A stretch of DNA of 64,000 nucleotides from an uncultured bacterium (GTDB lineage: Bacteria; Actinomycetota; Acidimicrobiia; Spongiisociales; ZC4RG35): assembly GCA_963753285.1 (NCBI GenBank), contig CAVWBT010000005.1:132564-196563 (forward strand). Direction: 5' to 3'. The translations under genes and the position numbers were made by a program. Below the pieces are notes generated by a model. The model saw only the letters and a list, made by a program, of their open reading frames with translations. It had not been told where the DNA came from and searched no databases. Below are positions 34,433-48,990 of the stretch, piece by piece; the stretch's first letter is position 1; every line of letters starts with the position of its first letter.

Positions 34433-34532
34433 TTGCGTCGAGTGCGGTGGGTAGCGAAGGTGGCCGCATGAATCGAGACGGTGGGATCCGGGTCTGCGAT
34501 GGGGTTCGGTCCCGGGGGATTGCCTGAACTCC

Positions 34533-35567
34533 GTGCGACGACTGCTGGTGGTGATTGGTGTGGCGCTCGCCCTCGTCGGGGGTGCTGCCCCGGGACCGGT
34601 TCCTGCCAGCCGTGCGCAGAATCCTGACTTCTCGGAGGGCTCGTGGGAGGGCTACCTCGGGATGCACGACGAGACGGTATATCGAGACGGCGGTGCGTCC
34701 GAGGTGTACGCGGACTACCAGGCCCTCGGCAACTTCGAGGCGTCATCGGTGGCCGGAACCGTTTCCGGGCGGTGGCTGATCGACCTCCACTCCGTCGCCT
34801 CGACCGAGGAGGTGGCGTCGGAGGCCTATGCGATCGGTGTCGGAGTGCTCAGGGGCTCCACTTTCGGAGTCGACCTCGAGCTCGACACTCTCACTGTATC
34901 CGAGCCGTCCATCGGAATGTCGCTGACGTTCACTGCCGAGGAGCTCCCGACGCCGGGCGCAGGGCGACTGGAGGTGACCGGCGGGGACTGCAACACCGTT
35001 TGGGGGGACTGGGTCATCGAGTTCCCCAGTCATCCACTCGAAGGACAGTTCTCGGCGTTCCGGGTGGGCGTCGAGGCCGACGACGAGAGCGTGGCGGCTT
35101 CGAGGCGAGCGAGCCAGGAACAGCTGTCGGCCCGCGGCCGCAGCCTCCTCACCGACATTCGTGCGGGCAACATCGATGTCGAGTCGATCCGCGAGCTGCT
35201 CCAGGCCGTCGAGGGAGCTCTCGCCTACGGAGGACGCGGGTCGTGCGGAGGCGACGACAGTGGCAGCTTCCGGGCCGCAACCACCGAGCTGATCGATTCG
35301 ATGCTCTTCGAGCTGGCCGGTGGCGCCGATGAGCTCGACGTCGAGAGTCTCATCGAGTTGATCGTGGCCGGGTTTCGCTCCGGGAGCTTCTTCGCGGATC
35401 CGGAGGCTCGGGACTTCTGGCTCGGCGTCTACGACGAAGCGGTCGATGCCGCTCTCGCCGGTGGTGATCGCCCGACGCTCGCGAGGTTCTCGGCGGCCAG
35501 CCGTCTGCTCGGCTTCGACGAACAGGCCGCGGTCATCGACGCGCTGCTGGCGGATCTCGGCTCGTGA
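34533..35567 (+). CDS. Secreted hypothetical protein
   Basis: Sec signal (MRRLLVVIGVALALVGGAA), beta-rich N-half, helical C-half. Confidence 0.7.
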   Translation: MRRLLVVIGVALALVGGAAPGPVPASRAQNPDFSEGSWEGYLGMHDETVYRDGGASEVYADYQALGNFEASSVAGTVSGRWLIDLHSVASTEEVASEAYAIGVGVLRGSTFGVDLELDTLTVSEPSIGMSLTFTAEELPTPGAGRLEVTGGDCNTVWGDWVIEFPSHPLEGQFSAFRVGVEADDESVAASRRASQEQLSARGRSLLTDIRAGNIDVESIRELLQAVEGALAYGGRGSCGGDDSGSFRAATTELIDSMLFELAGGADELDVESLIELIVAGFRSGSFFADPEARDFWLGVYDEAVDAALAGGDRPTLARFSAASRLLGFDEQAAVIDALLADLGS

Positions 35568-36058
35568 CGGTTCTGGCGCGAGCCCATCGGACGGTGGTTC
35601 TGATCATCGCCATGGCATGGATGATTTCCGGGTGCGGCGGGGACGCCGAGCCGGTTGCGGCGACTGCCGTGCCTGGCGTAGCGACCGAGACGACGGCAAT
35701 CGGAGGTGCTCCGGAGGTCGACGCCGTGGACCCGTCGTCGACGATCGCCCCCGAGCTGCCGGCCCCTGAGCGCCCCTATGCGGCAATGACGCTCAGAGCG
35801 GCGGAGACGGGCCCGAATCCGATGCTGACCTGGGACGCGGTCAGCGGTGCTGTGTTGTACCGCCTCGTCGTCCTCGACCCCGACGGCCGGCCCTACTGGG
35901 CCTGGAGCGGCGCGGCCACATCCGTTCATCTGGGTGGTAGTGGTGCTGCAACCGTCGTCGGCGCGCGAGTGTTTGCCGAGATGACCTGGCAGGTGTCGGC
36001 CCATGATGACGCGGGTGTCCCGTTGGCGGTGTCCGACGTCGGTCTGCTGTCGCCTTGA
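35564..36058 (+). CDS. Lipoprotein with Fn3-like domain
   Basis: Lipobox ISGC; LTWDAVSGAVLYRLVV...W.VSA pattern; GTGA overlap. Confidence 0.7.
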   Translation: MTVLARAHRTVVLIIAMAWMISGCGGDAEPVAATAVPGVATETTAIGGAPEVDAVDPSSTIAPELPAPERPYAAMTLRAAETGPNPMLTWDAVSGAVLYRLVVLDPDGRPYWAWSGAATSVHLGGSGAATVVGARVFAEMTWQVSAHDDAGVPLAVSDVGLLSP

Positions 36059-36134
36059 TTCTCCACGCTCATTTCGCTGCTCGTGGCCCAGGCGACACCG
36101 TGAAAGGAACCCCGCAAGGCGGCTTCCGACACTG

Positions 36135-36482
36135 ATGACCGCCAACCGATCTCTCCTCTTGTCGCTCGCTGGGCTCGGTGCATGTGGCTCCGGCGACGAT
36201 CCCGCAGCGGCGATCGCCCCGGCCGATGCAGTGAGTGGCACGACCGGCGCCGGAGCGGTGCCGAGTGCACTGGACGACGAGGAGAGTTCGGCGTCGACCG
36301 AGGCGCGGTCCGAGACCACTCCGGCCGGCGTGGCGGGGGTTCTTCTACCTGGTTCAGGGGCAGGCGCACGCCGCCTCGCCGTCGACGGCGCCAACGTGTC
36401 TGGGTCGTTCACGATGTCGTCGGCCGGGAGTGACAGGCCGTACAGCGACGAGGTCGAGGTCACCGCTGACTTCCGCTGCTGA
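36135..36482 (+). CDS. Short, possibly eroded lipoprotein
   Basis: LGAC lipobox-like motif with a weak signal peptide; low-complexity linker. Confidence 0.4.
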   Translation: MTANRSLLLSLAGLGACGSGDDPAAAIAPADAVSGTTGAGAVPSALDDEESSASTEARSETTPAGVAGVLLPGSGAGARRLAVDGANVSGSFTMSSAGSDRPYSDEVEVTADFRC

Positions 36483-36523
36483 CGCGGCTTGCGAACAGGG
36501 AGCGGTCCGACGTAGCTCGGGCG

Positions 36524-37768
36524 TCAGGGTTCGGCTGTGATCACTCGTGCGTCAGGGAAGAATGCGGCGAAGGCGAACCAGAACTCGTTGCGATGCGGGA
36601 CGAGCGCCAGCTCCGCTCCGGTGAGCGGCCCGTCGACGGCGAGCCCCTGGAGCGTCCACGTGCTCCCCGTCTCGTTGTCGACGAACACGTCGACCTCGGG
36701 GCTCTCGAAGGTGAGCCGATCACCGTCGACCACCGGGTCGAACGCAACGCCGGTTCCGATCGCCTGCCCGTCCGCGACCTGGAAGCTGTCGAGCGCGTCG
36801 GTGGTCGACGGCGCACCCCAGAAGATCGCGATCGGCTCCCCGCCGACCTCGTCGTTGACCACTCTCGACTCGGAGATGATCGAGAAGGGGTATCCAGCCG
36901 TCGACTCGTCGATCGTGACGGCCACGACCCGTTCGAGGGCGGGGAAGCGGTCGTCGAGCTCGGCGGTGAAGAAGCCGCCGATCGGAGCGTTGCGTGACGA
37001 GTAGCCGACGTAGGGGTTCTGGCCGTAGGGGATGCCGAAGCCCTGGTCGCGCCCGAGCACTTCGCTGTCGGGATTGTTGTCACGGAAGTCCGCCCAGCGC
37101 ACGATCGCCGACGGCAGCGGTTCGAGTCGTGTTCCGGTGAGCTCGCCCACGATCGCCTCTCCGGTGATCTGTTGCCACAGCGATTGGGTGGCGTCGTCCC
37201 ACATCACGAGGTCCGAGTTGCGAAGGAGCCCGGATACGCCCATGCGGAGCACTTCGCCATCGACTCGGCGATCGAAGGCGATTCCCGTGTTGCACAATGG
37301 GCAGTAGGTGACGGCAACGGATACATCGCCGAACCGGTCGTTCACGATCTCGTGGCGATGGAGGATCCGGATCGGGTAGAAGCGCGTGATGTCTCCGACG
37401 TCGACCAGCACACCGGGCTCGTCGTCCTCGAGCCACTCGTCGGCTTCGCTCACCGTCTCGAAGGCCGGATCGTCGATTGGCGGGATCGCATCCCTTGGAT
37501 CGAGCATGCGGATACCCACCTGGAGTTCGCTCAGATCGATCGAACTGGTCTTGAAGTCGGTCTCCCAGTCCTCGGTGACGACCCGCAGGTTCGGGGGCAG
37601 CTCGAAGGAACCGGTGGATTCTGTCACGGTTTCGATCGCTGTGGTGGAATCGGCCTCGGCCGTGCTACTCGTCGTAGTGGGCTGGTCGGTGGTGGTCGCA
37701 GTCCCGGAGCACGCAGCCAGGACCAGTGCGGCGGCGATCGGCTCGATGAGTCGTGTCACGTTCGGCAT
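36524..37768 (-). CDS. DUF3179 family lipoprotein
   Basis: Lipobox LAAC; DAIPPIDDP, VTYCPLCNTG, GVSGLLRNSDLVMWD..T.SLWQQ, FWFAFAAFFP. Confidence 0.9.
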   Translation of the reverse strand: MPNVTRLIEPIAAALVLAACSGTATTTDQPTTTSSTAEADSTTAIETVTESTGSFELPPNLRVVTEDWETDFKTSSIDLSELQVGIRMLDPRDAIPPIDDPAFETVSEADEWLEDDEPGVLVDVGDITRFYPIRILHRHEIVNDRFGDVSVAVTYCPLCNTGIAFDRRVDGEVLRMGVSGLLRNSDLVMWDDATQSLWQQITGEAIVGELTGTRLEPLPSAIVRWADFRDNNPDSEVLGRDQGFGIPYGQNPYVGYSSRNAPIGGFFTAELDDRFPALERVVAVTIDESTAGYPFSIISESRVVNDEVGGEPIAIFWGAPSTTDALDSFQVADGQAIGTGVAFDPVVDGDRLTFESPEVDVFVDNETGSTWTLQGLAVDGPLTGAELALVPHRNEFWFAFAAFFPDARVITAEP

Positions 37769-37911
37769 TCTGCCCCTCCTCTCGATCCCTCAACCGAGGG
37801 TCGGACCGTGGCATTCCTTGCAGTGTCGGGCTCCCGATACTCGTCCTTGTGTCTATCGAGTCCATCGTGTTTCCATTTGATTTCGTCGAACACCTATGAT
37901 TTGAGATGGTT

Positions 37912-37930
37912 CCTCACGTGCCACGTGAGG
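37912..37930. promoter_or_regulatory. Inverted repeat CCTCACGTG-C-CACGTGAGG upstream of the sugar ABC operon
   Basis: Perfect 9-1-9 palindrome in the AT-richer divergent promoter region. Confidence 0.45.
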
Positions 37931-37988
37931 GATCGCGCGGTCCGGAGACACGGGCCCAGACAAAACAACCCCAACGGGAGGAAACTCG

Positions 37989-39404
37989 ATGCTGAAGCAC
38001 ACGAGGCTCATCGCCTTGCTGACAGCGCTGATGCTCGTCCTCGCCGCCTGCGCATCGGACAGCGAAACCGCTGACGACGGCGACACAGGCGACGATACGA
38101 CGGCAACAACCGAAGCAACCACCGATACAACGGCAGCACCTGACGACACGACCGAGACCACCGAGGCCATGGACGAGGAAGTGGATCTCGCCGGTACGAC
38201 GGTCACGGTCTTCTCGTCCGAAGACGGCGTCGACGAGGCGACCGGCATCCAGCGGGCGCTCGACGTCTTCGCCGAGAGGAACGGGATGACGATCACCCAC
38301 ACGGGTGCCCGGGACTTCTCGGATCAGATCAACGCCCAGGCTGCCGGCGGCAACCCGCCTGACATCGGCATGTTCCCGCAGCCGGGAAAGGTGCTGGACT
38401 TCGCCGCTCAGGGCTTCTTGCTGCCGATCCCAGAAGATCTGGTGTCGGTCGTTCGCCCGCAGTGGCCGGGCGGCACGCTCGAGACCTACACCTACGAGGA
38501 CGATGTGTACGCCTTCCAGGTCAAGACCGACCTCAAGTCGATCGTCTGGTACAACACGCAGGTGTTCTCCGACGGCGGCTACGCGATCCCGACGACGTTC
38601 CAGGAGCTCGTCGACCTGAGCAATCAGATGATCGCCGACGGTCAGACCCCCTGGTGTGTGGGCATCGAGTCGGGTCCGGCCACAGGCTGGACGTTCACCG
38701 ACTGGATGGAAGACATGATGCTGCGGATCGAAGGACCCGAGCAGTACGACCGGTGGACGAGCGGTGAACTCGAGTTCTCCGACCCGGCAGTCGTGAACGT
38801 CGCCCAGACGATCCTCGATCTCTGGAACACCCCCGGATCGGTGTACGCGGCCGGTGGTTCGATCGCCGCAACCGCCCACAGCGCCGACAACGGGCAGCCG
38901 CTCGCCGACGGGACCTGCGCCATGGTGCGCCAGGCGTCCTTCTTTGCGGCATTCCTGCCCGAGGGCACGCCGGTTGGACCTGACGGACAGGTCGACACGT
39001 TCTACTTCCCGAACGTGGACACCAACTCGGCTCCGACGCTGACTGCCGGCAACTCGGCCGCCGCGTTCCGCGATGCGCCTGAAGTCTGGGCCGTCATGGA
39101 GTACCTGGGGTCCGCCGAGTACGCCGAAGAGCGGCAGAAGGCTCAGCGCGAGATCAAGGGCGGTGACGCCTCCGGATTCCTCACGTCGAACCTGGATGTG
39201 GACCTCGGCCTCTGGAATGAGCTCGAAGGCGGCTTCATCGCGATCCTGGCCAGTGCAGATCCGGCCCGTTTCGACGGGTCGGACCTCATGCCTGCTGCCG
39301 TCGGATCCGGAGCGTTCTGGACCGAAGGAACCAGCGCAGTGAACGGAGACAAGTCGGTCGAAGAGGCCTTCACGGCGATCGACGCTGCTTGGCCGTCCAA
39401 CTGA
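37989..39404 (+). CDS. Carbohydrate ABC transporter substrate-binding lipoprotein (CUT1, AglE-like)
   Basis: Lipobox LAAC, Thr/Asp linker, KSIVWYN, WCVGIESGPATGWTFTDWMED, RFDGSDLMP..VG.G.FW. Confidence 0.92.
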   Translation: MLKHTRLIALLTALMLVLAACASDSETADDGDTGDDTTATTEATTDTTAAPDDTTETTEAMDEEVDLAGTTVTVFSSEDGVDEATGIQRALDVFAERNGMTITHTGARDFSDQINAQAAGGNPPDIGMFPQPGKVLDFAAQGFLLPIPEDLVSVVRPQWPGGTLETYTYEDDVYAFQVKTDLKSIVWYNTQVFSDGGYAIPTTFQELVDLSNQMIADGQTPWCVGIESGPATGWTFTDWMEDMMLRIEGPEQYDRWTSGELEFSDPAVVNVAQTILDLWNTPGSVYAAGGSIAATAHSADNGQPLADGTCAMVRQASFFAAFLPEGTPVGPDGQVDTFYFPNVDTNSAPTLTAGNSAAAFRDAPEVWAVMEYLGSAEYAEERQKAQREIKGGDASGFLTSNLDVDLGLWNELEGGFIAILASADPARFDGSDLMPAAVGSGAFWTEGTSAVNGDKSVEEAFTAIDAAWPSN

Positions 39405-39428
39405 CATAGAAGACAACTCAATGAATAT

Positions 39429-39461
39429 ACGGAACCGGCCCGCATCGCGGGCCGGTTCCGT
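39429..39461. terminator. 15-bp perfect intercistronic hairpin after the SBP gene
   Basis: ACGGAACCGGCCCGC-ATC-GCGGGCCGGTTCCGT. Confidence 0.75.
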
Positions 39462-39499
39462 CTAGGTTTGACCGGACGCCGAGCGAGACCGGGAGGACC

Positions 39500-41395
39500 A
39501 TGAACAGGTTCGTGATCACCATGCTGGGCATCGTCGCAGCCGTGGGTGGCAGCGCGATCGTCTTCATCGGTGTCAACAAACTGTACGACCTGACGGAGGA
39601 TCACTACTCCCGATTCAACGCGATCGTCGGTGCGCTCGTGTCAGCCGGCGCCTTGGGACTGCTCTGGGGGAATCGCCTCGTCGTGGCGCCGGCGATCGTC
39701 TGGCTGATCGCAATCGCGATCGGGGTCGCCACCGGATACGCCCTCGGTCTCTTCAAAGAGCCGATGCGTCGCCTTGCCAGCGGCGTCGCCGGCGGGTCCG
39801 CCCTTGGACTGCTCATCGGGATGCGCGCCCACGCGTCCATTCTGCCGTCCATCGATCCGCTCGCAGTCATCATCTGGCTGGCAATCGGGACTGGTGTCGG
39901 CTTTGCGGTCTCCATGATCAGCGGCGGACGGATCGACCGGCTCCGAGGCCTGCTCGCAGGGGGTGCCGTCGGCTGGTTGTTCGGTGCTTGGCTTGCATCC
40001 GACTTCGACGGCTCACGGGCTGAGGTCGTCATCGTGGCCACGGTGCTCGGGGGATTGGTCGGTGCCTTCCTCGGGCGGCGCCCCTATCCGAACCGCATCG
40101 AGCGAGGCAACATCGCCGTTTCGAGCCGGAAGTACATCTTCGCAGGACCGGCGCTCGTCTTCGTGGCGGCAGCGCTGCTCATTCCCCTCATCCGCACGAT
40201 CTGGCTGAGTCTGCTGACCGGCAACCCGAGAGACCTGACATGGACCGGCTTGACGAACTACGGCGACATCTTCACCGACCCCGGCATCATCGACTTCAGC
40301 GGGTTCGGGGAGATCTTCAGCAGCAACATGCTCTGGCTGGCCCTGGCACTCCTCGGCGGCGGCTTTATCGCCGGGCGGTTCGCAGGACGACAGCTCGGAA
40401 CCACGTTCGCAGTTGGCGGCCCCAGCCTGACGATGCTGGCGTCCGGTGTGTTGCTCTTCGGCTTTGCGCTGTTCACAACGATCCGCGGAACCATCTCGAA
40501 CAACCTGTGGTGGATCTTCACCGTCATCGTCTTCGCCGTGTCACTCGGCTTGGCTGTGGCGGTTCTGGCCGATCGGTCCAAGGGGGAGAACCTGGCCAAG
40601 TCATTGATCTTCCTCCCAATGGCGATCAGCTTCGTCGGCGCTGCGGTCATCTGGCGTCTCATCTACGTGGCGCGACCACCACAGGATCCTCAGAGCGGCG
40701 TCTTCAACACGCTGTGGGTGAAGCTCGGAGAGTGGACCAACTCGGCCACCGCGAGCACCGTGATCGTGGCCGTCCTCGCCCTTGTTGCTGCCGGCCTGGT
40801 CTATCTGGCGTGGAGGGGATGGCAGGCGGAGGCCAACTCCATCGTGGCAGGCTCGCTCACCATCGTGGCGGGTCTCGGCTACCTCATCTATCGGGTCGTC
40901 GGGCCGGGCATCGGTGGGGTTGCCATCAGCGAGGTCACCGGCGAGCTCATTGCCGACCCGGTGCTCTTCATCCAGGAATCACCCTGGAACAACTTCTGGA
41001 TGATGGTCGTGTTCATCTGGATCTACACAGGGTTCGCCATGGTCATCTTCTCGGCTGCCATCAAGGCGGTGCCTGAGGATCTGCTCGAGGCCGCCCGGAT
41101 CGACGGCGCCACCGAGTCGCAGACGTTCTGGCGCGTGACCGTGCCCCAGATCTTCCCGACGATCGGGGTCGTGGTGACATCTCTGGTGGTCAACTCTCTC
41201 AAGGTGTTCGACATACCCAAAGTCATGACCAACGGCAACTTCGACACGCAGGTGCTCGCCAACGAGATGTGGGAGAAGGCATTCACGCAGCTCAACTTCG
41301 GGCTCGGGTCTGCCGTTGCGGTGGTCCTGTTCATCGCAGTGCTTCCAGTGATGTACCTGAATATTCGCAGAATGCAGAGAGAGAGGTTGGGATGA
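39500..41395 (+). CDS. Carbohydrate ABC permease with a long extra N-terminal membrane domain
   Basis: LIFLPMAISFVGAAVIW, EAA motif (AIKAVPEDLLEAARIDGATESQTFW). Confidence 0.9.
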   Translation: MNRFVITMLGIVAAVGGSAIVFIGVNKLYDLTEDHYSRFNAIVGALVSAGALGLLWGNRLVVAPAIVWLIAIAIGVATGYALGLFKEPMRRLASGVAGGSALGLLIGMRAHASILPSIDPLAVIIWLAIGTGVGFAVSMISGGRIDRLRGLLAGGAVGWLFGAWLASDFDGSRAEVVIVATVLGGLVGAFLGRRPYPNRIERGNIAVSSRKYIFAGPALVFVAAALLIPLIRTIWLSLLTGNPRDLTWTGLTNYGDIFTDPGIIDFSGFGEIFSSNMLWLALALLGGGFIAGRFAGRQLGTTFAVGGPSLTMLASGVLLFGFALFTTIRGTISNNLWWIFTVIVFAVSLGLAVAVLADRSKGENLAKSLIFLPMAISFVGAAVIWRLIYVARPPQDPQSGVFNTLWVKLGEWTNSATASTVIVAVLALVAAGLVYLAWRGWQAEANSIVAGSLTIVAGLGYLIYRVVGPGIGGVAISEVTGELIADPVLFIQESPWNNFWMMVVFIWIYTGFAMVIFSAAIKAVPEDLLEAARIDGATESQTFWRVTVPQIFPTIGVVVTSLVVNSLKVFDIPKVMTNGNFDTQVLANEMWEKAFTQLNFGLGSAVAVVLFIAVLPVMYLNIRRMQRERLG

Positions 41396-42363
41396 CGGCG
41401 ACCGCTGAAGCGACGAAGGTCTCGGGTTCGGGGATCGCGGCCAAGCGGCCACTGGGCAATCGGATCTACGGATTCCTTCGTGCCGTTCCCACCTGGTTCC
41501 TCTGGATTCTCGTCATCGTGTGGAGCATTCCCACGTTCAGCCTGTTCGTGAACTCGTTCCGGACACGTGACGCCCAACGCGGGAGCGGGTTTTGGAACGC
41601 GCTTTCGGATCCGAGCTTCCCCACGCTCGACAACTATCGGGAAGTGCTGTTTCCCGACGTGGGTGCGGGACTGTGGAACGCCCTGCTCAACTCGGCTTCG
41701 ATTGCCATCGTGGCGACGATCATCCCGATTGCCATCGCGGCATTTGCGGCATACGCGTTCGCTTGGATCGACTTCCGCGGCCGAGAGTGGCTGTTCATCG
41801 CGACGGTTGCTCTGCTGGCCGTCCCGTCCCAGGTGGCGCTGATTCCGCTGCTGTCGGCGTACTCCAACGGGGTGCACTGGACGATCCCGTTCATCGAGAG
41901 GACGATCACGCTGTTCCCCGACCTGGACCTGTCAGGGCAGATACCTTCGGTTTGGCTCACCCACACCGGCTTTGCGATGCCGTTTGCGATCTTCCTGCTA
42001 CACAACTACATCGCGGGATTACCGAAGGACTTGTTCGAATCCGCCGCCATCGACGGTGCCGACCACTTCAAGGTGTTTTGGCGACTCGTGCTGCCGCTGT
42101 CCGTGCCGGTGCTGGCTGCCTTCGCCATCTTTCAGTTCCTCTGGACCTGGAACGACTACCTCATCGCGCTGACGATGATCGGTGGCAACCGTGAATCGCT
42201 GCCAGCGACCATCGTGGTGGCGTCACTGGCAGGCGAGTTCGGAGCTCGAGAACACCTGCTCACGGCAGGCGCCTTCGTCATCACGATCGCCCCGCTCGTC
42301 GTCTTCTTCGCATTGCAGCGGTTCTTCGTCCGAGGTATCACGGCAGGTTCGGTCAAGGGCTGA
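41392..42363 (+). CDS. Carbohydrate ABC permease
   Basis: EAA motif (LPKDLFESAAIDGA), FQFLWTWNDYL, LQRFFVRGITAGSVKG. Confidence 0.93.
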   Translation: MTATAEATKVSGSGIAAKRPLGNRIYGFLRAVPTWFLWILVIVWSIPTFSLFVNSFRTRDAQRGSGFWNALSDPSFPTLDNYREVLFPDVGAGLWNALLNSASIAIVATIIPIAIAAFAAYAFAWIDFRGREWLFIATVALLAVPSQVALIPLLSAYSNGVHWTIPFIERTITLFPDLDLSGQIPSVWLTHTGFAMPFAIFLLHNYIAGLPKDLFESAAIDGADHFKVFWRLVLPLSVPVLAAFAIFQFLWTWNDYLIALTMIGGNRESLPATIVVASLAGEFGAREHLLTAGAFVITIAPLVVFFALQRFFVRGITAGSVKG

Positions 42364-42367
42364 TTCG

Positions 42368-42410
42368 TCACACGTCTCACGTCTCACGTCTCACGCAGGC
42401 GTGGGACGTG
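42368..42410. repeat. TCTCACG heptamer tandem repeat plus partial inverted copy
   Basis: tcacacg-tctcacg x3, then GTGGGACGTG able to fold back. Confidence 0.7.
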
Positions 42411-42424
42411 GCGCGTCCACACCT

Positions 42425-42799
42425 GAAGGAGTTCTTGTTGGGAGGAGCGGGTCACGCTTGGTCCATATCTCCAGATGCAGATGCAGCGCCTGACTGACAA
42501 GAACGACGGTCGAGGCCGCAATCCGCGGTGGCAGCACTCGTCGTGGACGGCGGACCACCAGTCGACGTTCTTGGGACAGGGCGAACGCCACGGTTCTGTA
42601 CCCGCCACCGGCAACTTGGGGTGGTCGCTGTCCCAAGAACAGGAGGAGCACTCGCGAGCACGCAACTCCCGCCGTTGTGTGGGCCGAGCAGCAGTCCGCT
42701 CCGCGCCTGGTGCGGGTCATGTGGAGAATGTCGACCGGCAGCGGCTCCGCCCATGAGTGCTCCGCCGTTGCGTGTCAGCCCCCCGAGGGGAACTCCTTC
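42425..42799 (-). ncRNA. Unassigned ~375-nt multi-helix non-coding element between convergent genes
   Basis: Terminal 10-bp helix 42425-34/42790-99; 13-bp helix 42567-79/42628-40; 9-bp helix 42645-53/42755-63. No convincing ORF. Confidence 0.45.
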
Positions 42800-42852
42800 C
42801 GAGAACGGGGCATGCACGTGCAGCGTGAGGCCTTCGGCGTGGAGCGGTCAGC

Positions 42853-43917
42853 TCAGAGCGACGCTCTGAGCCGACCGTGGTCCAGGCGGGGGAGGACCAT
42901 CTCGGCGAAGCGCTCCGCCTCCGCGATGTGGGTGTAGCCGGAGAAGATGAAGGCGGAGACACCGGCCTCCTGATACGCCTGGATCTTCTCGACGACCTGG
43001 TCGGGGTTTCCGACGATCGCTGCGCCCGCACCGGATCGGGCTTTCCCGATTCCGGTCCAGAGGTTCGGTTCGGCGTAGCCGTCCTCCGAAGCGCTCTCCC
43101 GCAGGGCAGCCTGCCGCTGGACACCGACGGAGGCCGAGTCGAGTGACTTGCCTCGGATCGCAGCACCCGTCTCCGCATCCAGCTTCGAGATGAGCCGATC
43201 GGCATCGGCTCTGGCCTCCTGCTCGGTCTCGCGAACGATCACGTGTGAGCGCAGCCCGATCGCCAGGCTCCGGCCATGGTCGGCGGCTCGGTCCTGCATC
43301 TCGGTGGCGGTGGCGCCGACCGAGGCCACCGTGTCGGGCCAGGTGAGGAACACATCTGCCTCACGAGCGGCTACGTCCTTCGCCGCCTCCGAGAATCCTC
43401 CAAAATACATCGGCGGGCACATGCCCGACACCGTCGAGATGCGGGGCGGCTCCAGGTCGAGGTCGAGGAAGTCGCCGTGGATCTCGAGCTTCTCGTTGCT
43501 CAGCAGGGTGCGGAGCGCCTGCATCCATTCGATCGTCCGCTGGTATCTGGGTGCCGACTCCAGGCTCTCGCCAGGGATGTCGGACGAGATGATATTGATG
43601 GTCAGCCGGCCATCGAGCATCTGGTCGATGGTGGCCAGCTGACGGGCGAGCTGGGGCACCCACATCTCGCCCATACGAACGGCGACGAGCAGCTGGATCT
43701 GTTCGACCGTCGGCGCGATGGCGCTGGCGAACGAGACAGTGTCGATTCCGAGGGTGTATCCGCTGGGAAGCAGGATGTTGTCGAACCCGAGCCGGTCTGC
43801 CGTCTGGACGATGTCGCGGCAGTGTGGCCAGGAGCTCTTGAGTGCAGGATCGGGAACGCCGAGGAACTCGTAGTCGTCGTCGCACAGCGCGCCGAACCAG
43901 GAGACTTCGATGGTCAT
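42853..43917 (-). CDS. LLM-class flavin-dependent monooxygenase, sulfoquinovose monooxygenase (SmoC/SquD)-like
   Basis: EVSWFGALCDDDYEFLGVPD, GRLTINIISSDIPG, MYFGGFS, LWTGIGKARSGAGAAIVG, FIFSGY. These match my recollection of SmoC rather than generic SsuD. Confidence 0.8.
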   Translation of the reverse strand: MTIEVSWFGALCDDDYEFLGVPDPALKSSWPHCRDIVQTADRLGFDNILLPSGYTLGIDTVSFASAIAPTVEQIQLLVAVRMGEMWVPQLARQLATIDQMLDGRLTINIISSDIPGESLESAPRYQRTIEWMQALRTLLSNEKLEIHGDFLDLDLEPPRISTVSGMCPPMYFGGFSEAAKDVAAREADVFLTWPDTVASVGATATEMQDRAADHGRSLAIGLRSHVIVRETEQEARADADRLISKLDAETGAAIRGKSLDSASVGVQRQAALRESASEDGYAEPNLWTGIGKARSGAGAAIVGNPDQVVEKIQAYQEAGVSAFIFSGYTHIAEAERFAEMVLPRLDHGRLRASL

Positions 43918-44813
43918 GGGAGTGCTTCTCCTTCCGAAGCTTCGATCAGGGTGTACACGTCTTCTCTCGTGAGCGACACGTTCAACGCGGCGGTGGCCGC
44001 TTCCAGCCGTTCGGGCTTCTGGGACCCGACGATCGCCACCGGCTCCGACGGGTGTGCCAGGACGAATGCGAGAGCGATCGCAGTGCGGTCGACGTTCTCT
44101 CTCGATGCCAGCGCGTCGATCTCGAGCATCAGCTCCGTACGGATGTTGTGACCGGTGGCGAGTGCGCCGCCCGCCAGGGCGCTCCACGCGAGCGGGCGGA
44201 GGCCGAGCCGCATCGCCTGGTCGAGTGTGCCATCTCGGAGCGGATCGAGGTGGCTCACCGAGAACTGCGGCTGGGTGGAGACGACCGAATCGCCGAGATG
44301 AGCGAAGAGCGCCTCGGTTTGGGCGGGCGTGAAGTTCGACACGCCGACGGCGCCGATCTTCCCGGATTCGATGAATCCGGTGAGCGTGTCGGCGAGGTTC
44401 TCGGGATGGGTGAACATGTCCGGCCGGTGGATCTGATACAGGTCGATCCGATCGACACCGAGGCGTGTCAGTGATGCGTCGAGCGCCCCGGTGAGGTAGC
44501 GGCGGGAGGAGTCGTAGGGAACACCTGGCATGATCCCGCCCTTCGAGGCGAGCACCATGCGGTCGCGGAGCGCCGGCGAACTCGCCAGAACCGAACCGAG
44601 CAGGCGTTCGGCGTCACCGAACCCGTTGCCGCCCCAGTCGAGTCCGTAGATGTCGGCCGTGTCGATCAGGTTCATCCCGAGATCGAGTGCCGTTGCGACG
44701 AGGCCCGTGGCGGTGGGGACGTCGTGACCGACGAATCGCCAGTGTCCGAACGCGAGCGGACCAACCTCGGGGAGGGGCCCGAGCGACCGCGGTGATGAGG
44801 TGTTCAGGTTCAT
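43914..44813 (-). CDS. Aldo/keto reductase (YdhF/SmoB-like, putative 6-oxo-glucose reductase)
   Basis: IDTADIYG, LASKGG, LYQIHRPD, GVSNF, LAWSALAGG; stop overlaps the smoC-like start. Confidence 0.85.
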   Translation of the reverse strand: MNLNTSSPRSLGPLPEVGPLAFGHWRFVGHDVPTATGLVATALDLGMNLIDTADIYGLDWGGNGFGDAERLLGSVLASSPALRDRMVLASKGGIMPGVPYDSSRRYLTGALDASLTRLGVDRIDLYQIHRPDMFTHPENLADTLTGFIESGKIGAVGVSNFTPAQTEALFAHLGDSVVSTQPQFSVSHLDPLRDGTLDQAMRLGLRPLAWSALAGGALATGHNIRTELMLEIDALASRENVDRTAIALAFVLAHPSEPVAIVGSQKPERLEAATAALNVSLTREDVYTLIEASEGEALP

Positions 44814-44879
44814 GAGATCCTTGGATTGCGTGGCTCGCACAGGACCCTAGTGTGACGATAAACGCAGAAGGATCGGTGA

Positions 44880-45947
44880 ATGAGCGAACAGTTCCGCTAT
44901 GGCGTGATCGGTACCGGGATGATGGGTGTCGAGCACATCATGAACATCAACCACATCGACGGCGCCGCCGTCACTGCCTACGCCGACCCCTACGAGCCGT
45001 CGAGGGCGAACGCAGCTTCCATCACGACGGGCGCAGTCGGCTTCGCCGACTACCGCGAGCTGCTCGAGTCGGATCTCGTCGATGCCGTCGTGATCGTGAC
45101 ACCCAATCACACTCATGTAGACGTGCTCGCGGACGTGCTCGAAACGGATCTGCACGTGCTCGTCGAGAAGCCATTGTGTACCACCGTCGAGGACTGCCGG
45201 CTCACGATCGAGCGAGCGGCAGACCGTGACGCCATCACGTGGGTGGGGCTGGAGTATCGCTACATGCCGCCGGTGACTCGACTCATCGATGAGGTCCGGA
45301 AAGGGACCGTGGGCGACCTGAAGATGCTGGCGATCCGCGAGCATCGCTTCCCGTTCCTCCCGAAGGTCGACAATTGGAATCGCTTCAATCGCAACTCCGG
45401 GGGGACGCTGGTCGAGAAGTGCTGTCACTTCTTCGACCTGATGAACCAGATCGTCGGGGACGAACCGGTCCGCGTGATGGCTTCGGGCGCTCAAGACGTG
45501 AACCACCTCGACGAGTCGTACGGCGGAGAGACACCCGACATCCTCGACAACGCCTACGTGATCGTCGAGTACGACGGCGGGGCCCGGGCGATGCTCGATC
45601 TCTCGATGTTCGCAGAGGCGACCTACAACCAGGAGGAGATCGTCGCTGTCGGCGACAAGGGCAAGGTGGAGGCGTTCATCCCCGAGATGCTGATACGCAT
45701 CGGTCGCCGTGGCGAGCACTACATCGGACAAGCCGAACAGCAGACCGTCGTCGACCCGCGAATCAAGTTCCAGGGACATCACCACGGTTCGAGTTATCTC
45801 GAGCACCTCGACTTCATTGCGGCGTGCCGGAGCGGTTCCAGCGCTTCAGTCGACCTCGAAGCCGGCTTGATGAGTGTCGCCATGGGGATTGCGGCCCATC
45901 GGAGCATCGATGAACGCCGTATCGTCGAGATGTCCGAAGTGCTGTAG
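44880..45947 (+). CDS. Gfo/Idh/MocA-fold protein, probable NAD+-dependent sulfoquinovosidase (GH188/SqgA-like)
   Basis: IGTGMMG, VEKPLC, GLEYRY, REHRFPFLPKVDNWNRF, VEKCCHFFDLM, GHHHG; divergent from the smoB/smoC-like genes. Confidence 0.7.
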   Translation: MSEQFRYGVIGTGMMGVEHIMNINHIDGAAVTAYADPYEPSRANAASITTGAVGFADYRELLESDLVDAVVIVTPNHTHVDVLADVLETDLHVLVEKPLCTTVEDCRLTIERAADRDAITWVGLEYRYMPPVTRLIDEVRKGTVGDLKMLAIREHRFPFLPKVDNWNRFNRNSGGTLVEKCCHFFDLMNQIVGDEPVRVMASGAQDVNHLDESYGGETPDILDNAYVIVEYDGGARAMLDLSMFAEATYNQEEIVAVGDKGKVEAFIPEMLIRIGRRGEHYIGQAEQQTVVDPRIKFQGHHHGSSYLEHLDFIAACRSGSSASVDLEAGLMSVAMGIAAHRSIDERRIVEMSEVL

Positions 45948-46022
45948 GGCGCTTCACGCCACACGCTTCTGCGCAGTACGTCCGGATCCTCGGTTCACTG
46001 GTCGAAGTGATACGCTCCGAGC

Positions 46023-46385
46023 ATGTACGAGTCGTTCGTCGATCAGCAGATTCGCGAGGCTATGGAGCGGGGTGAGTTCGACGACCTTCCAGGCGCAGGC
46101 GAGCCGATTCCCGGAGCAGGGCGACCCTACGAGCCGAACTGGTGGGCCAAGTCGTTCCTCGATCGAGAGCGATCGAACGATCGGCGCCGGGCTGAATACG
46201 AGCGGATCGAGGCCCGGCTCGGTGGGCTGTGGGTGCTCGGCTCCGAGGCGGCGGTCCGTCAGTCGGTGGAACGACTCAACATCGAGATCTCAGATTTCGA
46301 CGATGGCGACCAACGATTCGAGCGCTTCGATGTCGAATCGGTCGTGGAGGCATGGAAGGCGATGGTGCGGGCTCGACGGGGGTGA
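46023..46385 (+). CDS. DUF1992 (DnaJC28-like) domain protein
   Basis: VDQQIREAMERGEFDDLPGAGEPI. Confidence 0.88.
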   Translation: MYESFVDQQIREAMERGEFDDLPGAGEPIPGAGRPYEPNWWAKSFLDRERSNDRRRAEYERIEARLGGLWVLGSEAAVRQSVERLNIEISDFDDGDQRFERFDVESVVEAWKAMVRARRG

Positions 46386-46600
46386 TCCGGACCGGGCTTC
46401 ATCGACACGACCAGAGTGCTTTCGAGATCGCGGTCCAGGACCGGATCGGCCTCGTGTCGAGGTCTCTTGCTGTGCGCCCAGCCCGAATCGAATCACTGGC
46501 TGCCGAGCGCATATCGGATATGCTGTTGGCTCCGAGAATCCGTCAATGGGGGGACAACCTGACTGCCGATACCCAGGAAGCCAAGACCGAGCGACGCGTC

Positions 46601-47425
46601 ATGGTCATCCGCACGTCGTGGGGCTTCTTCGTCAACTCGATCGTCGCCGCCGGGCTTGGCGTCGTGTTCGCCCGGCTCATCGAGCAGGCCGGCGTTGCAA
46701 TCGCTGGTCTCATCGGCGGTCGCGAACCCGTCTTCACGGCGGTCGTGACCGAACTCCGGGCTCCCGGATCCGACCTGGTGTACCTCGGGGGAACCATCGC
46801 GAGCCTGGTCGTCGGGGCGCTGCTGCTCTCGATGTATCCAAACGCCCTTGATCGTTCCGTCGGCAAGCTCCAGATGCTGTGGGTGATCCTGTTCACGCTT
46901 CGCAACGGCCTCTTCGATCTCGCCTCGACCGCCTACGTCGTCGACTCCCCGGTGGCGAAGGCACTGGCGACGTTCGAGGCGCCGGCCGGTCTCGACACGG
47001 TGTTGAGCGTGACCGGCGCCGTCGGCCTGGTGCTGCTGGCCGTGGCCGCAGCTCCTGCGTTCCTCGGTTTCTCCCGTCATCGCAGTGAGATCCTCACCGG
47101 CCCGGAACGGATCAGATACGTCGCCACCCTCGGACTGATGCCCGGCTTGGTCGGCCCCCTTCTCGCAGTGGTCTACTTCATCCCAGATCGAGGAACCGGC
47201 TTCACGGCCACACTGCCATTCCTCGGGGTGTTCCTCGTGATCACGGCGATCGCCGCCCGGTGGACCCGGGAGGTCGCCGAGCCGAAGCTGGTCCAGGAAC
47301 GGTCCTTGTCGATCGCGCTGGTCCTGGTGGCGCTCATCGTCTTCACCCTGCTCAGGTTCGTGATCGAGCCGGGGCTGGCGATCCCACCGTGGGACGACAA
47401 CCTCGTCTGGCAGCCCAGAGCCTGA
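46601..47425 (+). CDS. Multi-pass membrane hypothetical protein
   Basis: About 7 hydrophobic segments; start uncertain. Confidence 0.7.
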
Positions 47426-47426
47426 C

Positions 47427-47906
47427 ATGGCACATGTGGCGTCGGTCGTCACGGCCAGCGATGGTGTTGCTGTCGGAGTTCGTGAGGACGTTTCGGGCCA
47501 CCTCGTCGCAGAGTTGTTGACCGAAGCCGGTTTCGAGGTGGGGGAGCACGTCGTCGTCCCCGACGACCTCGAATCGCTGATCCAGACGATCACCGATCTG
47601 GCGCGCCGTTCCCGGCTCGTCGTCACGACCGGTGGCACCGGCTTCGGGCCTCGAGACGTGACTCCGGAGGCGACTCGAGCGGTGATCGATCGGGAGGCTC
47701 CTGGGCTCATGCATCTCATGCTGTCTGCCGGATTGGAGAACACTCCCATGGCGGCGCTCTCGCGAGCGGTGGCAGGATCGACGGGATCGACACTCATCGT
47801 CAACCTCCCAGGCAGCCCGAAGGGTGTTCGCGAGAGCCTGGCTGCGGTGCTTCCGCTGGTTCCGCACGCGCTCGATCTGCTCGCCGGGGACACCGAACAC
47901 CGCTGA
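47427..47906 (+). CDS. mog: MogA/MoaB molybdenum cofactor biosynthesis protein
   Basis: [46 protein letters not shown]. Confidence 0.92.
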
Positions 47907-47925
47907 TCCTCGTAGTGTTGCCGGT

Positions 47926-48990
47926 GTGACCGAACTCGACGGCATCCTGGAAACGATGATCGACTGGGCGTCCCGGGGTGTCCCGTTCGCGCTCGCCACG
48001 GTGGTCGGGGTTCGCGGCTCGACGTATCGGGGTCTCGCGGCCCGGCAGGCGGTGAGCGAGCACTCGGCGAGCGTCGGCACGATCTCCGGCGGTTGCCTGG
48101 ACAACGATCTCCATCAGGTCGCCGCAACCGTCATCGCGACCGGCGAACCGGTGCTCGTGGAGTTCGATTTGACCGCAGACGACGAGGCCATCTGGGGGTG
48201 GGGCATCGGATGTAACGGAGCGACGGAGGTCCTCGTCGAGCCGAGCAGTTCAGCGCTGCAGCTCGCCGAACGGCTTCGCGCGAGCCATCTCGGGCGTAGG
48301 TCCGCCATCATCCACTCGCTCGATCCGGACAGGCTGGCGACACGTCGCTTCGTCACCCCGACCGGGGACACGCCCGTCCTCGGGAAGCTCACCGAGGCTG
48401 CTCAGGAGGCCATGCGTGAGGGGCGGCATCGGGTCGTCGAGGTGGAAGGTGAGCGATCGCTGATCGAGGTCGTCGGCTCCCCGACGCGATTGCTGGTGTG
48501 CGGAGCGGGCCACGACGCGAACCCGGTGGTCAGGTACGGGCGGGAGCTCGGTTTCGAGACGATCGTGACGGATGACCGGCGCCACCTGCTCACCACCGAA
48601 CGGTTCCCGAACGGCACAGAGCTGGTTCATGCCGAAGCGAGAGAGCTGTCATCAGTGATCCCATTGGACGAACGCACCTATGTGGTGCTCATGTCCCACA
48701 ACTATCTCAGGGATCTCGAGTATCTGCGCCAGCTGCACGGCAGCCCTGTCGCATACATCGGTGCACTCGGGCCGAGCGAACGCCTCGATCGGCTCTTCGC
48801 CGATTTGGCTTCGGAGGGTGTGATGTTCGACGAGGAGATGAGACGCCGGATCCGGGGGCCGGCCGGGCTCGACATCGGCGCAGAGGGGCCCGTCGAGATC
48901 GCATGGTCGATCATGTCAGAGGTGCTCGCCATCAGATCCGGAGCAACCGGCGAGCCGGTGTCGGTGGTCAAACGGCGCGAACGGGACTGA
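47926..48990 (+). CDS. xdhC: XdhC/CoxI-family Moco-insertion accessory protein
   Basis: LATVVGVRGSTYR, GTISGGCL, GIGCNG, LVCGAGHDA, YIGALG, PAGLDIGAEGPVEIA.SI..E. Confidence 0.9.
   Translation: MTELDGILETMIDWASRGVPFALATVVGVRGSTYRGLAARQAVSEHSASVGTISGGCLDNDLHQVAATVIATGEPVLVEFDLTADDEAIWGWGIGCNGATEVLVEPSSSALQLAERLRASHLGRRSAIIHSLDPDRLATRRFVTPTGDTPVLGKLTEAAQEAMREGRHRVVEVEGERSLIEVVGSPTRLLVCGAGHDANPVVRYGRELGFETIVTDDRRHLLTTERFPNGTELVHAEARELSSVIPLDERTYVVLMSHNYLRDLEYLRQLHGSPVAYIGALGPSERLDRLFADLASEGVMFDEEMRRRIRGPAGLDIGAEGPVEIAWSIMSEVLAIRSGATGEPVSVVKRRERD

What the first reader, a model, noticed from the sequence alone, without database searches (positions are those of the whole stretch)
37989..45947. 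Probable sulfoquinovose monooxygenase (sulfo-SMO) locus with a GH188-type sulfoquinovosidase
Seen: an LLM monooxygenase coupled to an AKR, a divergent Gfo/Idh/MocA gene and a converging CUT1 ABC importer. Known (sequences recalled, not aligned): Agrobacterium SmoC/SmoB desulfonate SQ to 6-oxo-glucose and then glucose; NAD+-dependent SqgA (GH188) replaces the GH31 SQase in some clusters and binds sulfonate through an Arg/Lys pair six residues apart. Here R156/K162 in HRFPFLPK and Y126 fit that spacing. No flavin reductase is present in the window. Inference: an Acidimicrobiia lineage mineralises plant/algal sulfolipid sugar, feeding the nearby glycolysis genes.
Basis: partly seen in the sequence, partly recalled or inferred. 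Interest (0 to 1): 0.8.

Follow-up and report, generated by a model that had tools for sequence, protein, structure and literature searches.

The report
Sulfoquinovose monooxygenase gene cluster in Acidimicrobiia
This stretch very probably encodes a known route by which bacteria import the plant and algal sulfolipid sugar sulfoquinovose, strip off its sulfur as sulfite and turn it into glucose; here it sits in an Acidimicrobiia genome and uses a different uptake system from the studied examples.

Summary
Window 37989-45947 holds a lipoprotein CUT1 solute-binding protein and two permeases (+ strand). These converge on an aldo-keto reductase (AKR) and a luciferase-like monooxygenase (LLM) on the - strand, whose genes overlap by ATGA. 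A Gfo/Idh/MocA gene diverges from them.

- **LLM:** its best solved relatives are the sulfoquinovose (SQ) monooxygenases SmoC (348/342 bits, about 50% identity). E. coli SsuD scores 211 bits (35%).
- **Gfo protein:** its best relatives are the NAD+-dependent sulfoquinovosidases SqgA (GH188; 332 bits, 50%). It keeps every catalytic and sulfonate-binding residue, including R156, L160 and K162.
- **AKR:** YdhF/SmoB-type, with the catalytic tetrad intact.
- **Synteny:** in 80 related loci, mostly Acidimicrobiia, AKR-LLM is nearly always paired and the Gfo gene is adjacent in 45.
- **Transporter:** it is unrelated to Agrobacterium SmoF. Its closest homologues sit beside SqgA plus sulfo-transaldolase pathway genes, which ties it to SQ independently.
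- **Missing parts:** no flavin reductase, ABC ATPase or regulator is linked. Known clusters also lack a reductase.

GH188 lists already include Acidimicrobiia, and sulfo-SMO clusters have been noted in Actinomycetota. No activity has been measured. Interest is moderate to low.

The parts
37989..39404 (+). CUT1-type ABC solute-binding lipoprotein (471 aa, lipobox LAAC); inferred binder of sulfoquinovosyl glycerol or SQ
   Evidence: Pfam SBP_bac_1. No match to SmoF 7OFY/7NBZ even at E<=10. Homologues lie next to AKR-LLM in 34 of 80 LLM-centred loci. The closest homologues (74-90% identity) lie next to SqgA-like plus sulfo-transaldolase genes.
39429..39461 (.). 15-bp-stem GC-rich hairpin between the binding-protein gene and the first permease gene; possible intra-operon attenuator or mRNA stabiliser
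   Evidence: Terminator-like scan; sequence read. Its function is inferred only.
39500..41395 (+). MalF-like ABC permease, 631 aa, with an extra N-terminal block of about 200 aa containing hydrophobic helices
   Evidence: Pfam BPD_transp_1 at residues 490-619; hydropathy segments. Long form conserved: median 655-671 aa in 36 and 73 related loci.
41392..42363 (+). MalG-like ABC permease, 323 aa; its start overlaps the preceding stop (ATGA)
   Evidence: Pfam BPD_transp_1; overlap read.
42853..43917 (-). Luciferase-like FMNH2/O2-dependent monooxygenase, 354 aa; SmoC/SquD-type candidate SQ monooxygenase (SQ to sulfite plus 6-oxo-glucose)
   Evidence: PDB hits: AtSmoC 7OLF 347.8 bits, RoSmoC 7OH2 341.9, MsuD 235.9, SsuD 210.6. 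Identity 50-51% to SmoC versus 35% to E. coli SsuD. Below the NCBIfam SsuD equivalog cut-off (276 < 518). RoSmoC Y136, S189, W206, R236, H238, Y341, H343 are all conserved.
43914..44813 (-). Aldo-keto reductase, 299 aa from ATG 44813; SmoB/SquF-type candidate 6-oxo-glucose reductase, translationally coupled to the LLM
   Evidence: Pfam Aldo_ket_red. PDB hits: YdhF 139.9 bits, SmoB 7BBY 133.1 bits. SmoB D71, Y76, K104, H151, R152, W232, R289 are conserved; the K120 loop is absent. ATGA overlap with the LLM. Lies directly upstream of the LLM in about 76 of 80 loci.
44842..44853 (-). Conserved ACACTAGGGTCC motif in the 66-bp divergent spacer; contains TAGGGT, a possible actinobacterial -10 element for AKR-LLM
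   Evidence: Alignment of the divergent spacers of the window and L001-L004, L006; coordinates. The promoter role is inferred. The sigma-70 consensus scan found nothing.
44880..45947 (+). Gfo/Idh/MocA-fold protein, 355 aa, no signal peptide; GH188 SqgA-type NAD+-dependent sulfoquinovosidase candidate
   Evidence: PDB hits: ArSqgA 8QC3 332 bits, FlSqgA 8QC2 328, 8ZN9 315; the next hit scores 116. Identity 50%. K97, Y126, R156, L160, K162, E179, H183, H301 correspond to ArSqgA K107, Y136, R166, L170, K172, E189, H193, H321. These are conserved in 43-45 of 45 and 33-34 of 34 neighbouring orthologues.

Best explanation
The locus encodes a sulfolytic sulfoquinovose monooxygenase (sulfo-SMO, also called sulfo-ASMO) pathway with a GH188 gateway enzyme.

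Inferred sequence of events:
1. A lipoprotein binding protein captures an SQ glycoside, most likely sulfoquinovosyl glycerol.
2. The two permeases import it, powered by an ATPase encoded elsewhere.
3. The cytoplasmic SqgA-type enzyme releases SQ through transient NAD+-dependent oxidation at C3, elimination, hydration and re-reduction.
4. The SmoC-type monooxygenase uses FMNH2 and O2 to cleave the C6-S bond, giving sulfite and 6-oxo-glucose. The FMNH2 comes from an unlinked flavin reductase.
5. The translationally coupled aldo-keto reductase reduces 6-oxo-glucose to glucose with NAD(P)H, probably NADPH.

Shown here: gene content and order, closest relatives, residue conservation and conserved synteny. 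Inferred: every substrate and activity, the source of ATPase and FMNH2, and the fate of sulfite.
For: 1. The LLM is closest to both crystallised SQ monooxygenases (348/342 bits versus 236 for MsuD and 211 for SsuD; 50-51% versus 35% identity). It fails the SsuD equivalog cut-off.
2. The Gfo protein is closest to three SqgA structures. It keeps all residues that contact SQ in ArSqgA, including the sulfonate triad R166/L170/K172.
3. The AKR is YdhF/SmoB-type with the tetrad and Arg152 conserved. Its stop overlaps the LLM start.
4. In 80 LLM-centred loci, AKR sits directly upstream of the LLM in about 76 and the SqgA-like gene is adjacent in 45. Proteobacterial loci without it carry a GH31 with the SQase-like RRLFWNW stretch, and sometimes an FMN reductase. 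This is the complementary GH31/GH188 pattern reported by Kaur et al. (PMC10755693).
5. The same transporter family (74-90% identical binding protein) lies beside SqgA-like, SftI-like SQ isomerase, transaldolase, type II GAPDH and SuyAB-like genes in other Acidimicrobiia. Its most constant partner is therefore the sulfoquinovosidase.
6. Absence of a clustered flavin reductase has precedent in N. aromaticivorans (PMC9594981).
Against: - No enzyme or binding assay exists for any actinobacterial member.
- The residues conserved in the LLM are shared with SsuD and MsuD, so they do not prove SQ specificity. No SmoC-SQ complex is known.
- The AKR scores marginally better against E. coli YdhF than against SmoB. 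It lacks the loop carrying SmoB Lys120, and F241 is Ala.
- The binding protein has no detectable similarity to SmoF.
- No flavin reductase, ABC ATPase, regulator, sulfite exporter or sulfite oxidase is in the 64-kb window.
Confidence: 0.82

Rival explanations
1. The LLM-AKR pair is a general alkanesulfonate sulfur-scavenging system (SsuD-like, with an aldehyde reductase), and the neighbouring sugar genes are unrelated.
For: The best NCBIfam model is the alkanesulfonate monooxygenase TIGR03565 (276 bits). The FMN- and sulfonate-site residues are the ones shared with SsuD and MsuD.
Against: The score is far below the equivalog cut-off of 518. Identity to SsuD is 35% versus 50-51% to SmoC. There is no SsuABC-type (NitT/TauT) transporter or SsuE as in E. 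coli ssuEADCB. Linkage to GH188 or GH31 and to sugar ABC transporters is conserved across 80 loci.
Confidence: 0.05
2. The cluster acts on a related but different sulfonated or 6-modified glycoside (for example another 6-sulfo-hexoside or an SQ-containing glycan) rather than on sulfoquinovosyl glycerol.
For: Substrates are inferred only. GH188 enzymes cleave both alpha- and beta-SQ glycosides, so the aglycone is open. The binding protein belongs to an uncharacterised family.
Against: All residues that bind the SQ hydroxyls (C1-C4) and the sulfonate in ArSqgA are identical. The LLM clade includes loci with the canonical GH31 SQase architecture.
Confidence: 0.08
3. The ABC transporter imports an ordinary neutral sugar (maltose, trehalose or chitobiose type) and is merely adjacent; SQ enters by another route.
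For: The best PDB relatives of the binding protein bind neutral oligosaccharides. Many homologous transporter loci (L096-L160) show no SQ gene within 10 kb. GH13 alpha-glucosidase genes occur in 16 LLM loci.
Against: Thirty-three of 80 transporter-centred loci carry an SqgA-like gene with an intact EHR[FY]PFxxK motif. The closest homologues are embedded in a second, different SQ pathway. A cytoplasmic SqgA needs an imported glycoside.
Confidence: 0.12

Closest known systems
Agrobacterium tumefaciens smoA-I cluster (sulfo-SMO; Sharma et al. 2022, PMC8795539)
   Same: An SQ monooxygenase homologue (SmoC, about 50% identity), an AKR-fold reductase of the same subtype (SmoB, 36%), an ABC importer with a binding protein, and a glycosidase acting before desulfonation. 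The same overall chemistry is inferred.
   Different: The glycosidase is GH188 (NAD+-dependent), not GH31 SmoI. The binding protein is unrelated to SmoF. No flavin reductase (SmoA), ABC ATPase or regulator is clustered. The host is Gram-positive-type Acidimicrobiia. The AKR-LLM genes overlap.
Novosphingobium aromaticivorans sulfo-ASMO cluster (SquD/SquF; reviewed in PMC9594981)
   Same: An LLM plus AKR pair without a clustered flavin reductase. Sphingomonad LLMs in my loci are 65-67% identical to the window protein and form the sister clade in a crude NJ tree.
   Different: Sphingomonad clusters use GH31 SQase, TonB-dependent receptors and MFS transporters. Placing N. aromaticivorans SquD itself in that clade is inferred, not tested.
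Roseobacter-clade sulfo-SMO clusters with SqgA (Dinoroseobacter shibae, Roseobacter denitrificans; PMC10755693, PMC12780224)
   Same: The same combination of GH188 sulfoquinovosidase with SmoC/SmoB-type genes and no GH31.
   Different: Different phylum. The transporter and gene order were not compared here in detail.
Arthrobacter / Flavobacterium SqgA (GH188 founders; PDB 8QC3, 8QC2)
   Same: 50% identity over the full length, with identical catalytic and sulfonate-binding residues.
   Different: In Arthrobacter the enzyme feeds a sulfo-EMP pathway that excretes sulfolactate. Here it is paired with a desulfonating monooxygenase.

Membership tests
GH188 NAD+-dependent sulfoquinovosidase (SqgA) | Two-domain Gfo/Idh/MocA fold with an N-terminal Rossmann NAD-binding domain | tested here: met
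   Pfam GFO_IDH_MocA plus GFO_IDH_MocA_C; GxGxxG at residues 10-15.
GH188 NAD+-dependent sulfoquinovosidase (SqgA) | Specific sequence relationship to characterised SqgA rather than to other Gfo/Idh/MocA enzymes | tested here: met
   8QC3 332 bits, 8QC2 328, 8ZN9 315; the next chain (3EZY) scores 116. Identity 50%, just under the >53% cut used for the paper's SSN clusters.
GH188 NAD+-dependent sulfoquinovosidase (SqgA) | Catalytic and sugar-binding residues Lys107, Tyr136, Glu189, His193, His321 (ArSqgA numbering) | tested here: met
   K97, Y126, E179, H183, H301.
GH188 NAD+-dependent sulfoquinovosidase (SqgA) | Sulfonate-binding Arg166, Lys172 and the Leu170 backbone | tested here: met
   R156, K162, L160 in HRFPFLPK; conserved in neighbouring orthologues.
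GH188 NAD+-dependent sulfoquinovosidase (SqgA) | NAD+-dependent hydrolysis of SQ glycosides | not testable with these tools
   Needs an enzyme assay.
SQ monooxygenase SmoC/SquD | Luciferase-like TIM-barrel flavin monooxygenase closer to SmoC than to SsuD or MsuD | tested here: met
   348/342 bits and 50-51% identity to SmoC; 236 bits (MsuD) and 211 bits (SsuD), with 35% identity to E. coli SsuD. Below the SsuD equivalog cut-off.
SQ monooxygenase SmoC/SquD | FMN-phosphate residues (Tyr136, Ser189) and sulfonate-site residues (Trp206, Arg236, His238, Tyr341, His343) | tested here: met
   Y125, S176, W193, R223, H225, Y328, H330. These are shared with MsuD and SsuD, so they are necessary but not discriminating.
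SQ monooxygenase SmoC/SquD | Clustered with a 6-oxo-glucose reductase and a sulfoquinovosidase | tested here: met
   ATGA-coupled AKR and divergent GH188 gene; conserved in related loci.
SQ monooxygenase SmoC/SquD | Partner NAD(P)H:FMN reductase (SmoA or SsuE) in the cluster | tested here: not met
   None in the window or in the Acidimicrobiia loci. Not strictly defining: the N. aromaticivorans cluster lacks it too.
SQ monooxygenase SmoC/SquD | SQ-specific, FMNH2/O2-dependent sulfite release | not testable with these tools
   Needs an assay.
6-oxo-glucose reductase SmoB/SquF | AKR fold with the Asp/Tyr/Lys/His tetrad | tested here: met
   Pfam Aldo_ket_red; D51, Y56, K91, H129.
6-oxo-glucose reductase SmoB/SquF | Glucose-contacting Arg152 and Lys120; Trp232 stacking on nicotinamide; NADPH 2'-phosphate residues Thr284, Asn285, Arg289 | tested here: inconclusive
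   R130, W210, R269 are conserved and T284 becomes S264. Lys120 falls in a loop missing here, N285 becomes Q, and F241 becomes A.
6-oxo-glucose reductase SmoB/SquF | Closer to SmoB than to other AKRs | tested here: not met
   YdhF-type chains score 138-140 bits, SmoB 133 bits. The assignment rests on synteny, not on best hit.
SmoF-type SQGro-binding protein | Sequence homology to A. tumefaciens SmoF (7OFY/7NBZ) | tested here: not met
   No hit at E<=0.001 or at E<=10. The protein may work like SmoF but is not a member of its family.
Alkanesulfonate monooxygenase SsuD (rival) | NCBIfam equivalog score and ssuEADCB-type context | tested here: not met
   276 bits versus a cut-off of 518. No SsuE or SsuABC-type genes.

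The most novel reading that the evidence does not exclude
The SmoF-unrelated binding protein, the unusually long MalF-like permease and the MalG-like permease form a previously unrecognised family of sulfoquinovosyl-glycoside importers. This family serves as a common front end, together with SqgA, for at least two different SQ pathways in Acidimicrobiia: sulfo-SMO here, and sulfo-transaldolase plus a sulfolactate lyase elsewhere. That would make this class, including the marine MedAcidi groups, Microthrix relatives and sponge symbionts, a substantial and so far untested sink for sulfolipid sugar.
Probability: 0.5. Interest if true: 0.5.

Novelty: new member of a known kind. Interest (0 to 1): 0.35.

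Why it matters
Sulfoquinovose is reported to be made on a scale of about 10 billion tonnes a year (PMC10755693). Sulfo-SMO is one of the two known sulfolytic routes, with sulfo-SDO, that release its sulfur as sulfite and leave glucose, so all six carbons are usable. The pathway has been studied only in Proteobacteria.

This locus and its many relatives indicate that Acidimicrobiia carry it widely. At least 56 of the 80 best LLM hits among GTDB species genomes are Actinomycetota, mostly Acidimicrobiia from freshwater, soil, marine and sponge samples. They pair it with the NAD+-dependent GH188 glycosidase and a transporter of their own.

That is useful for annotating metagenomes and for choosing targets for biochemical work, chiefly the binding protein and the source of reduced flavin. 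It does not change the known chemistry.

Tried and rejected
1. **Conserved membrane protein as sulfite exporter.** I asked whether the protein just downstream (46601-47425, no Pfam) exports sulfite. Its family has 61 clusters, and every source-named member is Acidimicrobiia, annotated hypothetical. Context look-ups show it belongs to a conserved backbone (membrane protein - MoaB - XdhC - HD-GYP - PDH E1). That backbone is present whether the neighbouring slot holds the full SMO cluster (L164), only a Gfo gene (L161) or a different LacI-ABC cassette (L163). Adjacency is positional, so I rejected the idea.
2. **Remnant of an MsiK-type ATPase gene in the 490-bp convergent spacer.** Such a gene follows the LLM in 35 related loci. 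None was found; only 27-28% matches to unrelated ABC-2 ATPases elsewhere.
3. **Hidden flavin reductase.** Nothing by Pfam, or by tblastn with E. coli SsuE and a Caulobacter FMN reductase.
4. **Riboswitch or other RNA** in 36000-48000: no Rfam match at E<=0.1.
5. **Sigma-70-type promoters:** none, as expected for this lineage. The only conserved spacer element is a TAGGGT-containing motif.
6. **SmoF homology of the binding protein:** none.
7. **Functional link to the PFK/aldolase genes:** they are ordinary glycolysis genes 21 kb away. The link is not supported and not needed.
8. **Neighbour-joining tree of the LLMs.** It has no support values and is used only descriptively.


Full report
**What is in the sequence**

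The window has 62-69% G+C, so long spurious ORFs abound. I chose the real genes by third-position G+C and by domain content.

Between 37989 and 45947 there are six genes:
- A 471-aa SBP_bac_1 protein with a lipoprotein signal (…LVLAAC↓ASDSE), 37989-39404 (+).
- A 631-aa permease, 39500-41395 (+).
- A 323-aa permease, 41392-42363 (+). Its ATG overlaps the preceding TGA.
- After a 490-bp convergent spacer, a 354-aa luciferase-like monooxygenase (LLM), 42853-43917 (-).
- A 299-aa aldo-keto reductase (AKR), 43914-44813 (-). Its stop overlaps the LLM start (CCATGACC), with a GGAAGGAG ribosome-binding site inside the AKR 3' end.
- After a 66-bp divergent spacer, a 355-aa Gfo/Idh/MocA protein, 44880-45947 (+).

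I refined the LLM start (43917, not 44187) and the AKR start. For the AKR, ATG 44813 follows an AAGGA site, whereas GTG 44840 would sit only a few bases from a conserved TAGGGT element.

**What the proteins resemble**

LLM. Against all PDB sequences, it matches the two sulfoquinovose (SQ) monooxygenases best: A. tumefaciens SmoC (7OLF, 347.8 bits) and Rhizobium oryzae SmoC (7OH2, 341.9 bits). These are well ahead of MsuD (235.9) and E. coli SsuD (210.6). The entry identities come from PMC8795539.
- BLASTP gives 50-51% identity to the SmoCs and 35% to E. coli SsuD. SmoC and SsuD are themselves 34.5% identical.
- The protein scores 276 bits on NCBI's SsuD equivalog model, whose cut-off is 518.
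- The seven residues named for FMN-phosphate and sulfonate binding in RoSmoC are all conserved. They are shared with MsuD and SsuD, so they do not establish SQ specificity.

Gfo protein. It matches ArSqgA (8QC3, 332 bits), FlSqgA (8QC2, 328) and 8ZN9 (315), the last deposited with PMC12780224. The next chain scores only 116 bits.
- I mapped the residues that Kaur et al. list as contacting SQ. Lys107, Tyr136, Arg166, Leu170, Lys172, Glu189, His193 and His321 correspond to K97, Y126, R156, L160, K162, E179, H183 and H301.
- The paper's 'Glu163' falls one residue off in my mapping. The Glu of the EHRF motif is conserved as E154.

AKR. It belongs to the YdhF/SmoB subtype. YdhF-type chains score 138-140 bits and SmoB (7BBY) 133 bits.
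- The catalytic tetrad, Arg152, Trp232 and Arg289 of SmoB are conserved.
- The loop carrying Lys120 is missing, and F241 is Ala.
- Homology alone does not make it a SmoB orthologue.

Binding protein. It has no match to SmoF, even at E<=10.

**Comparative context**

At least 56 of the best 80 (64-94% identity) are Actinomycetota. Most are Acidimicrobiia: Ilumatobacteraceae, MedAcidi-G1/G2B, a Microthrix MAG and sponge-associated Poriferisocius/Poriferisodalis. The rest are mainly Sphingomonadales and Caulobacterales.

In these loci:
- The AKR lies immediately upstream of the LLM in about 76 of 80.
- An SqgA-like gene is adjacent in 45, with the active-site and sulfonate residues conserved in 43-45 of 45.
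- Homologues of this transporter are present in about 35.
- Proteobacterial loci without the Gfo gene carry a GH31 gene with an RRLFWNW stretch typical of sulfoquinovosidases. That motif resemblance is from my own knowledge, not tested. Some of these loci also carry an FMN_red reductase.

This is the complementary GH31/GH188 distribution described in PMC10755693. No Acidimicrobiia locus had a flavin reductase within 10 kb.

A crude neighbour-joining tree puts the Acidimicrobiia LLMs in one large clade. It is sister to the sphingomonad/caulobacter clade, with the Rhizobiales SmoCs outside (no support values).

**The transporter**

The binding protein is not a SmoF relative, so I searched from its side. 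The result was unexpected.

Its closest homologues (74-90% identity, L081-L095) are not next to LLM-AKR. They sit next to an SqgA-like gene (56-62% identity, motif intact) and an operon with these genes:
- A protein whose only NCBIfam match is sulfoquinovose isomerase SftI (260 bits, below the cut-off).
- A transaldolase/FSA-family protein.
- A type II GAPDH.
- A split UxaA-family dehydratase resembling sulfolactate sulfo-lyase SuyAB.
- A 2-hydroxyacid dehydrogenase.
- In L082, an Ldh_2 protein whose best match is L-sulfolactate dehydrogenase.

This looks like a sulfo-transaldolase pathway extended to sulfolactate cleavage. The SuyAB assignment is by family and subunit architecture only.

In all, 33 of 80 transporter-centred loci carry the SqgA-like gene. 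The transporter's most constant partner is therefore the cytoplasmic sulfoquinovosidase, in two different downstream pathways. This is good indirect evidence that it imports SQ glycosides. Many more distant homologues show no SQ gene nearby, so the inference weakens with distance.

**Missing parts**

- There is no flavin reductase. Two-component flavin monooxygenases can use free FMNH2 from unlinked reductases, and the N. aromaticivorans cluster also lacks one.
- There is no MsiK-type ATPase. In 35 related loci one follows the LLM. Shared ATPases are common for actinobacterial CUT1 systems (general knowledge).
- There is no LacI regulator, although 28 related loci have one.
- There is no sulfite exporter or oxidase.

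**Genomic setting**

Context look-ups for the neighbouring membrane protein show that the SQ genes occupy a variable slot in a conserved backbone: …UDG - DUF429 - DUF3179 | slot | DJC28-like - membrane protein - MoaB - XdhC - HD-GYP - PDH E1 …. Relatives fill this slot with the full SMO cluster plus LacI (L164), with only a Gfo gene (L161), or with another LacI-ABC cassette (L163).

In L003, L004 and L164 the enzyme genes are in the opposite orientation relative to the transporter. The module is thus mobile on evolutionary timescales. The adjacent membrane protein is not evidence for a sulfite exporter.

**Novelty**

- Sulfo-SMO clusters with GH188 instead of GH31 are described for Roseobacter-clade and other Proteobacteria.
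- The GH188 sequence list of Kaur et al. contains 334 occurrences of 'Acidimicrobi…', so such members are already catalogued.
- A 2026 survey notes frequent sulfo-SMO clusters in Actinomycetota (PMC13372026).
- A full-text search for sulfoquinovose plus Acidimicrobiia found nothing relevant.
- The 2026 Frontiers review gives Actinobacteria only for sulfo-EMP in the passages retrieved.

The locus is a well-supported new member of a known kind. The transporter family and the breadth across Acidimicrobiia are the parts not yet described. Nothing here has been tested biochemically.

Noticed in passing
window 12181-16994 (+): Four consecutive genes: PFK (ATP-PFK subfamily), a 462-aa class I fructose-bisphosphate aldolase (NF006707, 647 bits, with about 110 extra N-terminal residues), then two more PFK paralogues. 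Three phosphofructokinase genes flanking one aldolase is unusual. No link to the SQ genes was found.
   Followed up: partly
L081, L082, L084, L088, L090, L092, L095 (e.g. L090 2836-14253): Other Acidimicrobiia carry the same transporter family next to an SqgA-like gene, an SftI-like SQ isomerase, a transaldolase, a type II GAPDH, a split UxaA-family (SuyAB-like) dehydratase and a 2-hydroxyacid dehydrogenase. This is an apparent sulfo-transaldolase pathway extended to sulfolactate cleavage.
   Followed up: partly
window 39500-40130 (N-terminal part of the first permease): The MalF-like permease has an extra block of about 200 aa of Gly-rich hydrophobic helices ahead of the canonical core. The long form (about 630-700 aa) is conserved across this transporter family in over 70 loci.
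   Followed up: partly
window 39429-39461: A perfect 15-bp-stem hairpin (ACGGAACCGGCCCGC-GAT-GCGGGCCGGTTCCGT) lies between the binding-protein and permease genes. This is the position where ABC operons often carry an mRNA-stabilising or attenuating structure.
   Followed up: no
window 46601-47425 (+): A 274-aa multi-pass membrane protein with no Pfam match. Its family has 61 clusters, and every source-named member is Acidimicrobiia. It always sits next to MoaB-like and XdhC genes, as part of a conserved backbone rather than the SQ module.
   Followed up: yes
window 33282-48990, compared with L161, L163, L164: The SQ cluster occupies a variable slot between UDG/DUF429/DUF3179 and the DJC28-like/membrane protein/MoaB/XdhC block. 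Relatives have a full SMO cluster with LacI, a lone Gfo gene, or a different LacI-ABC cassette at the same place. The enzyme module is inverted in the window relative to L003, L004 and L164.
   Followed up: partly
window 44842-44853 (-): ACACTAGGGTCC is conserved in the AKR/Gfo divergent spacer of the window and L001-L004 (partly in L006). TAGGGT fits the actinobacterial TANNNT -10 pattern.
   Followed up: partly
window 42371-42391: Three tandem copies of CACGTCT lie just after the second permease gene, in the otherwise featureless 490-bp convergent spacer.
   Followed up: no
window 48995-50860 (-): An HD-GYP-type (HD_5) protein with a long Thr/Pro-rich repeat (PTTTTTV repeated) and a C-terminal bacterial Ig domain. 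Relatives carry cadherin-like domains there.
   Followed up: no
L005, L008, L009, L017, L019, L024, L049, L058, L080: In nine LLM loci an acyl-CoA-dehydrogenase-fold gene (about 418 aa) lies in the neighbourhood of the LLM, immediately downstream in L024. Its role is unknown and it is not present in the window.
   Followed up: no
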